DNA of 64,000 nucleotides, from NCBI RefSeq assembly GCF_003018255.1, contig NZ_CP027440.1. One strand, given 5' to 3'. The position numbers were made by a program, and so were the translations under genes. Positions 32,040-33,363 of this stretch are shown here, piece after piece. Source of the stretch: Escherichia coli. GTDB lineage: Bacteria; Pseudomonadota; Gammaproteobacteria; Enterobacterales; Enterobacteriaceae. The notes beneath the pieces are model-generated. The model did no database searches. It was given only the letters and a program-made list of their open reading frames with translations, and was not told the origin of the DNA. Every line of letters starts with the position of its first letter. The stretch's first letter is position 1.

Positions 32040-32312
32040 ATGGCGCAACATATAAAATCCCACAATTCTGAAGTCGATCCGGCCATTAAGCGGGGGCGGC
32101 GTTCGCACGTATTTAAAACTGACTGGTACCAGCATCCCCCATGCACTGAAGAACAGGCCGAATGGCTGATCCAGTGTTACCGCAGGCGCGGATATGAGTT
32201 TGAGAAAGCCCTCAGCCTCGATTATCGTCACTGGATAATCTCCGTCAGGCTCCCTTATTCCGAACGCCCACCGCGTCCGTCCCGCACATTCCAGCAGCGC
32301 ATCTGGAGGTAA
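32040..32312 (+). CDS. hypothetical protein (Rem-like by position)
   Basis: 90 aa from MAQHIKSHNSEV with GGAG RBS; sits between hok and the YdfU-like gene as rem does in Qin. Confidence 0.4.
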   Translation: MAQHIKSHNSEVDPAIKRGRRSHVFKTDWYQHPPCTEEQAEWLIQCYRRRGYEFEKALSLDYRHWIISVRLPYSERPPRPSRTFQQRIWR

Positions 32313-32313
32313 C

Positions 32314-33363
32314 GTGCGGGTATTACTTCGACCTGTTCTGGTACCGGAACTCGGTCTGGTTATCGTTAAGCCAGGCCGTGAATCAATGTCAGCATTCCAT
32401 AACGGCAGAATATTGGTGGAGGCGGAACCGAAAAACATGCGCGATCTGCCGTCCGGAGTCGTTCCTGCCGTTCGCCAGCCGCTGGCAGAGGATAAAACAT
32501 TACTGCCATTTTTCAGCGATGAGCGGGTTATTCGTGCAGCAGGTGGTGCAGGTGCACTGTCTGACTGGTTATTACGTCACGTGAAATCCTGCCAGTGGCC
32601 ACACGGCGATTATCATCACAGCGAAACAGCCATTCACCGTTATGGTACCGGCGCGATGGTGTTGTGCTGGCACTGTGACAACCAGCTGCGCGACCAGACA
32701 TCAGAATCACTCGATCAACTTGCTCAGCAGAATCTGGTTGCCTGGATGATTGATGTCATCCGTCACGCAATAAGCGGTACGCAGGAGAGGGAGTTATCGC
32801 TGGCCGAATTATCCTGGTGGGCGGCCTGCAATCAGGTGGTGGATGCACTACCTGAGGCAGTAGCGCGTCGTTCGCTGGGATTACCAGCGGAAAAAATCCG
32901 CTCCGTATACCGTGAGAGTGACATCGTACCGGGAGAACAGACAGCCATCAGCATACTGAAGCAGCGCACAAAAAATATTGCGCTGCCACTTCACGTCCAC
33001 CAGCAACAAAATCCACCACAGAAAAAAACGGTTGTCAGTATCGCCGTTGATCCGGAGTCTCCTGAATCGTTCATGAGGCGGCCTAAACGTCGCCGTTGGG
33101 TTAATGAGAAATACACGCGCTGGGTAAAGACACAGCCGTGTGCGTGTTGTGGTAAGCCAGCTGACGATCCGCATCACCTGATTGGTCATGGTCAGGGGGG
33201 AGTGGGAACAAAGGCCCACGATATTTTCACGCTACCGTTGTGCCGGGAGCACCACAACGAACTTCATGCAGACCCGCTGAAGTTTGAGAAAAAGTACGGC
33301 TCTCAGATTGAGTTAATTTTTCGTTTTCTTGATCACGCCTTTGCGACTGGCGTGCTCGGGTAA
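32314..33363 (+). CDS. YdfU-like (DUF968) protein with C-terminal HNH-like Cys/His motif
   Basis: 349 aa; GTG start after GGAGG; C-terminal CACCGKPADDPHHLIGHGQGG...LCREHHNELH. Confidence 0.6.
   Translation: MRVLLRPVLVPELGLVIVKPGRESMSAFHNGRILVEAEPKNMRDLPSGVVPAVRQPLAEDKTLLPFFSDERVIRAAGGAGALSDWLLRHVKSCQWPHGDYHHSETAIHRYGTGAMVLCWHCDNQLRDQTSESLDQLAQQNLVAWMIDVIRHAISGTQERELSLAELSWWAACNQVVDALPEAVARRSLGLPAEKIRSVYRESDIVPGEQTAISILKQRTKNIALPLHVHQQQNPPQKKTVVSIAVDPESPESFMRRPKRRRWVNEKYTRWVKTQPCACCGKPADDPHHLIGHGQGGVGTKAHDIFTLPLCREHHNELHADPLKFEKKYGSQIELIFRFLDHAFATGVLG

What the first reader, a model, noticed from the sequence alone, without database searches (positions are those of the whole stretch)
32040..33363. 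YdfU-like protein with C-terminal HNH-type Cys/His cluster
The 349 aa protein ends with CACCGK...DPHHLIGHGQGG...LCREHHNELH, a pattern compatible with an HNH/zinc-finger nuclease fold, in a family usually annotated only as domain of unknown function. It is translationally adjacent to a Rem-like small gene. A nuclease role in replication or anti-host function is plausible but unproven.
Basis: inference. Interest (0 to 1): 0.3.

Follow-up and report, generated by a model that had tools for sequence, protein, structure and literature searches.

The report
Prophage YdfU: predicted HNH nuclease
This is the common prophage gene ydfU; its tail end does fold like an HNH-type DNA-cutting enzyme with the catalytic residues present, but that prediction was published years ago, so the finding is correct and ordinary.

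Summary
A 349-aa ORF (GTG 32314..33363) ends in CACCGK…DPHHL…LCREHHNELH. It starts one base after the stop codon of a 90-aa ORF.

- **Identity.** The protein is 84% identical to E. coli K-12 YdfU and matches Pfam DUF968 (257 bits).
- **HNH reading: supported.**
  - Zinc ligands C276/C279/C310/H313 and catalytic-type H287/H288/D303/H314/H318 are conserved across the family.
- **Not new.** DUF968/YdfU was placed in the His-Me finger superfamily in 2014–2017, and PHROG_96 already calls it "HNH endonuclease".
- **"Rem-like": wrong.** The upstream ORF has no similarity to Rem. Its homologues precede YbcO-type genes in other phages.

Three additions from this work:
1. The Pfam-unannotated N-terminal half probably holds a second, degenerate zinc ββα domain (moderate evidence).
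2. The gene sits next to a junction nuclease (RusA, once VRR-NUC) and the late-gene activator across distant phages.
3. The closest tested relative is phage ΦNM1 Gp16, a nickase that binds RecA.

Most likely role: an accessory early nuclease acting on recombination or replication intermediates. Nuclease activity of YdfU itself is untested.

The parts
32040..32312 (+). 90-aa ORF of unknown function (PHROG_1212), translationally abutting ydfU. It is not Rem.
   Evidence: ORF listed. PHROG_1212 E 1.5e-36 over residues 25-90. No similarity to K-12 Rem. Homologues at 35-48% identity lie directly upstream of YbcO-type genes in mEp237, phiES15 and Kpn_R1, and upstream of YdfU in Evi, 640R1 and the PPompW phages.
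32305..32316 (+). Junction GGAGG-TAA-C-GTG: a Shine-Dalgarno-like sequence inside the end of the small ORF, its stop codon, then the GTG start of ydfU one base later.
   Evidence: Read directly from the sequence.
32314..33363 (+). ydfU-type gene (DUF968 family), 349 aa.
   Evidence: 84% identical to K-12 YdfU. Pfam DUF968 at 257 bits over residues 160-346. PHROG_96 'HNH endonuclease', E 1.6e-172, full length. RefSeq annotates 'DUF968 domain-containing protein'.
32314..32883 (+). N-terminal domain (residues 1-190). No Pfam model covers residues 1-159.
   Evidence: AF2 model of this domain alone has pLDDT 92.9 and pTM 0.78. Only the start of the DUF968 model matches at sequence level; no HNH family matches. 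PHROG_11007 (unknown function) covers residues 2-135.
32590..32688 (+). N-domain zinc/beta-beta-alpha core (residues 93-125): C93, H101, C118, C121 and the motif LCWH[C/H]DN. Probably a degenerate His-Me-finger-like unit with no conserved catalytic His.
32884..33048 (+). Inter-domain linker (residues 191-245), partly disordered.
   Evidence: pLDDT below 50 at residues 226-232 and 234-239. Full-length pTM is 0.57, against 0.78 for the N-domain alone.
33049..33360 (+). C-terminal His-Me finger (HNH) domain (residues 246-349), preceded by the conserved basic motif RPKRRRW (K258 invariant).
33139..33267 (+). Core motif C276-A-C-C279 ... H287-H288 ... D303 ... C310-R-E-H313-H314-N-E-L-H318.
   Evidence: Sequence and family conservation. 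Correspondence to Gp16 C145/C148, H157, C181, H184, H185, H189 (PMC12817073).
33376..33738 (+). rusA (Holliday-junction resolvase), starting 12 bases after the ydfU stop codon.
   Evidence: Pfam RusA E 1.9e-17. RefSeq annotation.
33731..34396 (+). Antiterminator Q gene, overlapping the end of rusA.
   Evidence: Pfam Phage_antiter_Q E 3.9e-89. RefSeq start maps to the ATG at 33731.

Best explanation
The gene is a ydfU-type (DUF968) gene of a lambdoid E. coli prophage.

**Shown or strongly predicted**
- The last ~100 residues form a zinc-stabilised His-Me finger (HNH, beta-beta-alpha-metal) domain of the YbcO/DUF968 group.
- C276, C279, C310 and H313 hold the structural zinc.
- H288, at the end of strand 1, is the general base.
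- H314, H318 and probably H287 hold the catalytic divalent metal. D303 braces the loop.

**Inferred**
- The protein nicks or cuts DNA without much sequence specificity, at branched or RecA-bound intermediates of phage replication and recombination.
- It works beside the junction resolvase encoded next to it, as a dispensable helper function.
- It is made from the early rightward transcript just before Q, with translation coupled to the small upstream ORF.

**Less certain**
- The N-terminal half carries a second zinc-binding beta-beta-alpha unit (C93/H101/C118/C121, motif CWHxDN) that lacks the catalytic His.
- This unit most likely serves to bind DNA or a partner protein, not to cut.
For: **Fold**
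- The AF2 model has pLDDT 88.4.

**Sequence**
- DUF968 at 257 bits; HNHc_6 at 24.3 bits.
- PHROG_96 'HNH endonuclease'.
- hhalign to YbcO, E 1.4e-5.
- 42% identity over 59 aa to the HNH domain of PhiNM1 Gp16, including LCREHHNE.HA.
- Gp16 itself passes the DUF968 gathering score.
- HH...LPLCRxHH is shared with P1 Ref.

**Conservation**
- Zinc and catalytic residues are kept in about 80-99% of 50%-identity representatives.

**Experimental support in relatives**
- Gp16 binds dsDNA, nicks plasmid DNA, binds RecA and is stimulated by it, and is needed for efficient phage DNA replication (PMC12817073).
- Ref cuts only RecA-bound DNA and D-loops (PMC4330346, PMC3973344).

**Context**
- YdfU-RusA-Q in the window.
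- DUF968-RusA in L015; RusA one gene away in SfV and L007.
- DUF968 overlapped by a VRR_NUC gene in L016.
- DUF968 directly before Q or Lpa in Qin, SfV, L007, L014, L017 and P1.
- YbcO-type genes occupy the same slot before RusA.
- Published hypothesis of a recombination role for group 7 (PMC5714182).

**Dispensability**
- P1 pdcB is non-essential (PMC10695390).
Against: - No biochemical data exist for YdfU, YbcO or any DUF968 protein of Gram-negative phages.
- The P1 PdcB-like clade has lost the HH pair and the helix histidines while keeping the cysteines. Catalysis is therefore not essential to the whole family.
- The strictly invariant residues (C118, K258, C276, D303, P308, G329) are not the catalytic histidines.
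- Similarity to Ref and Gp16 is limited to the ~60-80-residue HNH core. Their RecA dependence resides at least partly outside it, so it cannot be transferred by homology.
- Gene adjacency to RusA may only reflect the mosaic order of nin regions.
Confidence: 0.55

Rival explanations
1. YdfU is a non-catalytic zinc-finger DNA-binding or regulatory protein. It keeps the HNH scaffold but acts by binding DNA or a partner, for example to influence late-gene activation by Q or Lpa.
For: - The PdcB-like clade lacks the HH pair and the helix histidines but keeps the Cys ligands and the overall protein.
- The invariant residues are structural, not catalytic.
- The gene lies immediately upstream of Q or Lpa in almost every context seen.
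- Some records label it a transcriptional regulator or Q (PMC5714182 mentions an Arsenophonus 'phage transcriptional regulator').
- In Gp16, the zinc-site mutants abolished the phenotype while catalytic-His mutants only partly did (PMC12817073).
Against: - In this protein and about 90% of family representatives, all catalytic-type residues are intact. That conservation is hard to explain without catalysis.
- The 'Q' labels are annotation errors, since the true Q gene lies next door.
- There is no helix-turn-helix or other regulator domain.
Confidence: 0.2
2. YdfU is an anti-host or inter-element conflict nuclease. It would degrade or nick host or competitor DNA to shut off the host, exclude other phages or counter a defence system, not to process the phage's own intermediates.
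For: - Gp16 overexpression arrests S. aureus growth and condenses the nucleoid (PMC12817073).
- P1 Ref sensitises lysogens to ciprofloxacin (PMC4713147).
- A strong Rho-dependent terminator upstream of K-12 ydfU is discussed as silencing toxic prophage genes (PMC9160355).
- The gene follows hokD here and phd-doc in P1.
Against: - No PADLOC defence model matches.
- The gene sits in the early lytic operon with replication and recombination genes, not in a lysogen-expressed moron.
- Linkage to junction nucleases is consistent.
- No toxicity data exist for YdfU itself.
Confidence: 0.15
3. YdfU is the terminase-associated HNH that helps cut concatemers at cos, like HK97 gp74.
For: Many phage HNH proteins have this role (established knowledge; PMC12817073 introduction).
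Against: - A separate classical HNH (PF01844, E 6e-7) lies at 48793..49158, immediately upstream of terminase small and large subunits (49381.., 50007..).
- ydfU is about 16 kb away, in the early region.
- In L015 a PF01844 HNH also sits apart from the DUF968 gene.
Confidence: 0.03

Closest known systems
E. coli K-12 YdfU (Qin prophage; Pfam DUF968, PF06147; His-Me finger 'group 7' of Jablonska et al. 2017)
   Same: - 84% identity over the full length.
- Same length and the same slot before Q.
- Same C-terminal motif.
- Predicted but untested nuclease.
   Different: - Here RusA lies between ydfU and Q.
- A different small gene replaces rem upstream.
YbcO (DLP12 / phage 82 orf96; DUF1364, PF07102; PDB 3g27)
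   Same: - Same GxGTKxxD...C..[CH]H.E motif.
- Same genomic slot directly before rusA and Q.
- The same type of small upstream ORF in mEp237, phiES15 and Kpn_R1.
   Different: - YbcO is 96 aa and single-domain. YdfU adds about 245 N-terminal residues: a zinc domain plus a linker.
- The first zinc knuckle is CQx6C in YbcO and CxxC in YdfU.
- YbcO has AH where YdfU has HH.
Staphylococcus phage PhiNM1 Gp16 (HNHc_6, PF16784; NAR 2026, PMC12817073)
   Same: - HNH core 42% identical over 59 aa, with identical LCREHHNE.HA.
- Gp16 also scores above the DUF968 gathering threshold.
- Early gene near SSB, replication genes and RusA.
- It is the only close relative with biochemistry: dsDNA binding, nickase activity, and RecA interaction with stimulation.
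   Different: - Gp16 has AHY where YdfU has HHL.
- YdfU scores 24.3 bits on HNHc_6, below its cut-off of 26.6.
Bacteriophage P1 Ref (RecA-dependent HNH nuclease; PF16786; PDB 3plw)
   Same: - Shares HH...LPLCRxHH.
- Has a basic segment N-terminal to the HNH core.
- Non-essential phage recombination helper.
   Different: - No Pfam RecA_dep_nuc hit for YdfU.
- Ref's N-terminus is disordered, not a folded zinc domain.
- RecA dependence of YdfU is untested.
- P1 also carries a separate YdfU homologue, PdcB.
Lambda Rap/NinG (branch-specific HNH endonuclease of the nin region)
   Same: - A His-Me finger nuclease encoded in the equivalent nin-region position before Q.
- Dispensable.
- Acts on recombination intermediates (PMC5714182; PMC4118853).
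   Different: - A different His-Me group (24 versus 7).
- No sequence match.
- Analogy of position and presumed role only.

Membership tests
Pfam DUF968 (PF06147) / YdfU family | Score above the curated gathering threshold (27.8 bits) | tested here: met
   257 bits, E 1.2e-76, residues 160-346 covering the whole profile. 84% identity to K-12 YdfU.
His-Me finger (HNH) superfamily | Beta-beta-alpha-metal fold | tested here: met
   [not shown]
His-Me finger (HNH) superfamily | Catalytic His at the end of strand 1 | tested here: met
   H288 aligns with YbcO H32 and Gp16 H157. H at this position in 84/90 representatives.
His-Me finger (HNH) superfamily | Metal-ligand His/Asn/Asp on the helix | tested here: met
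   H314 (73/80) and H318 (72/78) correspond to Gp16 H185 and H189.
His-Me finger (HNH) superfamily | Structural zinc site, CxxC plus CxxC/H (zinc-finger HNH subtype) | tested here: met
   C276, C279, C310 and H313 are present and conserved. Position 313 alternates between H and C across the family. Zinc binding itself was not measured.
His-Me finger (HNH) superfamily | Metal-dependent nuclease activity | not testable with these tools
HNHc_6 (PF16784; Gp16 / phiETA Orf20 type) | Score above the gathering threshold (26.6 bits) and a NinB/Orf-like N-terminal domain | tested here: not met
   [not shown]
Ref-type RecA-dependent nuclease (PF16786) | Pfam match; cleavage only of RecA-bound DNA | tested here: not met
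   [not shown]
Rem (K-12 b1561), for the upstream small ORF | Sequence similarity to Rem | tested here: not met
   BLASTP finds no alignment at E <= 100. The Rem sequence is shown. The ORF belongs to PHROG_1212.
Terminase-associated HNH (HK97 gp74 type) | Gene adjacent to the terminase genes; PF01844-type HNH | tested here: not met
   A different gene at 48793..49158 fills this role. ydfU lies about 16 kb upstream.
Known anti-phage defence systems (PADLOC-DB 2.0) | Match to any defence-protein model | tested here: not met
   No hit at E <= 0.01 for YdfU or the small ORF.
Second (N-terminal) His-Me-finger-like domain | Beta-beta-alpha fold with a zinc site; catalytic His at the end of strand 1 | tested here: inconclusive
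   [not shown]

The most novel reading that the evidence does not exclude
YdfU would be a tandem His-Me-finger protein. A degenerate N-terminal zinc beta-beta-alpha domain, unannotated in Pfam and arisen by internal duplication, would recognise branched DNA or RecA filaments and direct the active C-terminal HNH nickase. Together with the small PHROG_1212 protein and the adjacent junction resolvase (RusA, or VRR-NUC in some phages), it would form a conserved three-gene cassette of lambdoid phages. That cassette would create and resolve recombination intermediates, making it a Gram-negative counterpart of the RecA-linked nucleases Ref and Gp16.
Probability: 0.2. Interest if true: 0.45.

Novelty: already known. 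Interest (0 to 1): 0.15.

Why it matters
YdfU/DUF968 and its short relative YbcO are among the commonest uncharacterised prophage genes in E. coli. DNA similar to this stretch is found in 4781 of 5426 complete genomes.

If they are RecA-linked or branch-specific nickases working with RusA, that would fill a gap in how lambdoid phages that lack Rap/NinG process recombination and replication intermediates. It could also bear on prophage-driven genome rearrangement and on phage-antibiotic synergy, as shown for P1 Ref.

For this scan, the main value is negative.

Tried and rejected
- **Sequence searches against the PDB.** The full protein, each half, and profiles A1 and A2 gave only chance C2H2 zinc-finger or unrelated hits at E > 0.2. 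The link to solved structures needed fold comparison.
- **NCBIfam.** No model matches YdfU.
- **hhalign of the N-domain against single-sequence YbcO.** Not significant, E 0.3-0.5, despite a shared CQx6C spacing that I had noticed by eye.
- **'Rem-like' and NinE identities for the small ORF.** No similarity to Rem. The alignment with DLP12 NinE is essentially gaps.
- **Proteins joining the YdfU N-domain to tail, capsid or portal domains** (P0126, P0147, P0175, P0192, P0194, P0246). I treat these as chimeric assemblies or gene calls, not real architectures, and did not use them.
- **Packaging-HNH role.** Rejected on gene position.
- **Defence-system membership.** No PADLOC hit.
- **Zinc-site geometry.** I could not inspect model coordinates, so it was not checked.

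Full report
**What is there**

The window region 28.8-37 kb is the early-right ("nin") region of a lambdoid E. coli prophage. A 2.8-kb stretch around the finding is 99.6% identical to several Shiga-toxin-type E. coli chromosomes, and DNA similar to it occurs in 4781 of 5426 complete E. coli genomes.

The gene order is:
- replication protein P
- DUF1627, a DNA-binding protein, and DUF4406
- two unknown ORFs
- hokD
- a 90-aa ORF (32040..32312)
- the 349-aa ORF (GTG 32314..33363)
- rusA (33376..33738)
- Q (33731..34396)
- an AT-rich insert
- a DNA methylase and two tRNAs

The genes are tightly packed. The small ORF ends GGAGG-TAA, one base before the GTG of the large ORF. rusA starts 12 bases after the large ORF's stop codon, and Q overlaps rusA.

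**Checking the observation**

The GTG start is real. Homologues down to 25% identity begin with the same MRxLLxP segment, the structure model is confident from residue 1, and RefSeq uses the same start.

The Cys/His pattern is not a chance feature. Among 150 family representatives at 50% identity, each of C276, C279, H287, H288, D303, C310, H/C313, H314 and H318 is kept in about 80-99% of the sequences that cover it.

**Identity**

The protein is 84% identical to E. coli K-12 YdfU of the Qin prophage. It matches Pfam DUF968 at 257 bits over residues 160-346, and HNHc_6 weakly at 24.3 bits, just under the 26.6 cut-off. PHROG_96, labelled "HNH endonuclease", matches at full length with E 1.6e-172. 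Phage P1 PdcB is a 25%-identical full-length homologue.

**Testing the HNH reading**

- Sequence searches against the PDB found nothing, so I built an alignment of 37 diverse full-length homologues and predicted the structure. The model has mean pLDDT 88.4.
- The model has the expected strand-strand-helix unit at residues 285-288, 306-309 and 311-319.
- Profile comparison with YbcO gives E 1.4e-5. The alignment places H288 on the YbcO histidine that Kaur and Subramanian identified as the catalytic one (PMC4999995).

**This is already known**

- Curtis et al. 2014 (PMC4118853) described a zinc-finger HNH motif at the C-terminus of DUF968 proteins.
- Kaur and Subramanian 2016 (PMC4999995) predicted a nuclease function for YbcO/DUF1364.
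- Jablonska et al. 2017 (PMC5714182) put DUF968 and DUF1364 together as group 7 of the His-Me finger superfamily. They named YdfU explicitly, noted RusA and Q as neighbours, and proposed a recombination role.
- I found no biochemical study of YdfU, YbcO or PdcB.
- P1 pdcB is listed as "function unknown" and non-essential.

**What this work adds**

1. *Closest tested relative.* This is Staphylococcus phage ΦNM1 Gp16 (NAR 2026, PMC12817073).
   - Its HNH part is 42% identical to YdfU over 59 residues, with an identical LCREHHNE.HA stretch.
   - Gp16 itself passes the DUF968 gathering score.
   - Gp16 binds dsDNA, nicks plasmid DNA, binds RecA and is stimulated by it, and supports phage DNA replication.
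   - The best structural match, P1 Ref, is also a RecA-dependent nuclease.
2. *Gene context across distant relatives.* The gene sits beside a junction nuclease and/or just upstream of the late-gene activator.

   | Locus | Arrangement |
   |---|---|
   | Window | YdfU-RusA-Q |
   | L015 (24% identity) | CsrA-DUF968-RusA |
   | L016 | DUF968 overlapped at its 3′ end by a VRR_NUC gene |
   | SfV and L007 | RusA one gene away, Q directly after |
   | L014 | DUF968, one unknown ORF, then a Q-like antiterminator |
   | P1 and L017 | DUF968-Lpa |

   The swap of RusA for an unrelated junction-type nuclease argues for a functional link, not mere linkage.
3. *The upstream small ORF is not Rem*.
   - It belongs to PHROG_1212.
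   - Its homologues sit directly before YbcO-type genes followed by RusA and Q in mEp237, phiES15 and Klebsiella phage Kpn_R1.
   - They also sit directly before YdfU in Evi, vB_EcoS-640R1 and the PPompW phages.
   - The short (YbcO) and long (YdfU) forms therefore occupy the same cassette.
4. *A probable second zinc domain.*
   - Residues 1-159 have no Pfam annotation.
   - Modelled alone (pLDDT 92.9), they contain a second strand-strand-helix unit at residues 105-125.
   - A conserved four-ligand site is present: C93, H/C101, C118 and C/H121, with H and C alternating among homologues. The motif is LCWH[C/H]DN.
   - The N and C domains align in register with P about 0.01.
   - Against this, Foldseek finds nothing, no Pfam HNH model matches, and there is no conserved His at the end of strand 1.
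   - I regard it as a probable degenerate His-Me-finger-like zinc domain, not proven.
5. *A clade without the catalytic histidines.* The PdcB-like clade has lost the HH pair and the helix histidines but keeps the cysteines. The scaffold is retained even where catalysis is probably lost.

**Mechanism proposed**

*Shown or strongly predicted:* a zinc-stabilised HNH domain with a complete catalytic set.

*Inferred from relatives and context:* a metal-dependent nickase or endonuclease acting on branched or RecA-bound DNA during phage replication and recombination. It would cooperate with RusA, be expressed as a delayed-early gene, and be dispensable. A strong Rho-dependent terminator reported upstream of K-12 ydfU fits a gene that is silent unless antitermination occurs.

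**Rivals**

- A non-catalytic DNA-binding or regulatory role. This is supported mainly by the PdcB clade and the constant position before Q or Lpa.
- An anti-host or conflict nuclease. Gp16 toxicity and Ref-mediated ciprofloxacin sensitivity point that way, but there is no PADLOC hit.
- A packaging HNH. This is rejected, because a classical PF01844 HNH sits next to the terminase genes at 48793..49158.

**Verdict**

Interest is low. The modest new points are the probable tandem zinc/ββα architecture, the conserved cassette of small ORF, HNH gene and junction nuclease, and the link to the newly characterised Gp16. These are leads for experiment, not discoveries.

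Noticed in passing
window 34400-35600 (ORF 34650..35363, + strand): An AT-rich insert (38-41% GC against about 50-55% on either side) lies between Q and the DNA methylase. It encodes a 237-aa protein that looks multi-pass membrane from its sequence. The protein has no Pfam or PADLOC match. It looks like a moron of unknown function placed directly downstream of Q.
   Followed up: partly
window 48793..49158 (+), next to 49381..50010 and 50007..51668: A classical HNH endonuclease (PF01844, E 6e-7) lies immediately upstream of the terminase small and large subunit genes. This is the usual packaging-associated HNH arrangement and is separate from ydfU.
   Followed up: partly
window 32040..32312; L011 2504-2704; L012 2501-2701: The small ORF upstream of ydfU (PHROG_1212, about 66-aa conserved core) recurs directly upstream of YbcO-type HNH genes in mEp237, phiES15 and Klebsiella phage Kpn_R1. 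Some phage records label it 'toxin to Rem' or 'mobile element protein'. Its function is unknown, and it may be a partner of the HNH protein.
   Followed up: partly
L016 4529-4999 (prophage in GCA_033238805.1): In a 31%-identical YdfU homologue's locus, the gene overlapping its 3' end encodes a VRR_NUC nuclease where RusA is found elsewhere. This looks like a non-orthologous replacement of the neighbouring junction nuclease.
   Followed up: no
L002 3905-4948 (P1 pdcB); proteins P0196, P0218, P0254; L017: A P1 PdcB-like clade of the family has lost the HH pair and the helix histidines of the HNH motif but keeps the CxxC...CxxC cysteines. It sits directly upstream of the late promoter activator Lpa. 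It is probably a catalytically dead derivative.
   Followed up: partly
proteins P0126, P0147, P0175, P0192, P0194, P0246: Database proteins join the first 115-300 residues of YdfU to phage tail-fibre, tail-tip, capsid or portal domains. These are most likely chimeric assemblies or gene calls in prophage-rich genomes, not real fusions.
   Followed up: no
window 36984..37059 and 37069..37145 (+): Two phage-borne tRNA genes lie downstream of the DNA methylase. ARAGORN calls the first tRNA-Met (anticodon CAT), while RefSeq calls the corresponding gene in the near-identical genome tRNA-Ile. The second is tRNA-Arg (TCG).
   Followed up: no
window 30360..30728 (+): This 122-aa ORF has no Pfam hit. 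In the near-identical genome, RefSeq annotates the corresponding stretch as a partial 'valyl-tRNA synthetase' pseudogene, which looks like an annotation oddity.
   Followed up: no
window about 45300-47500 versus L010 (NZ_CP075640): Downstream of the late-gene regulatory region, the window differs from the best-matching genome. For example, it carries an antirepressor (ANT/KilAC) gene at 46109..46804. This shows the usual mosaicism among these prophages.
   Followed up: no
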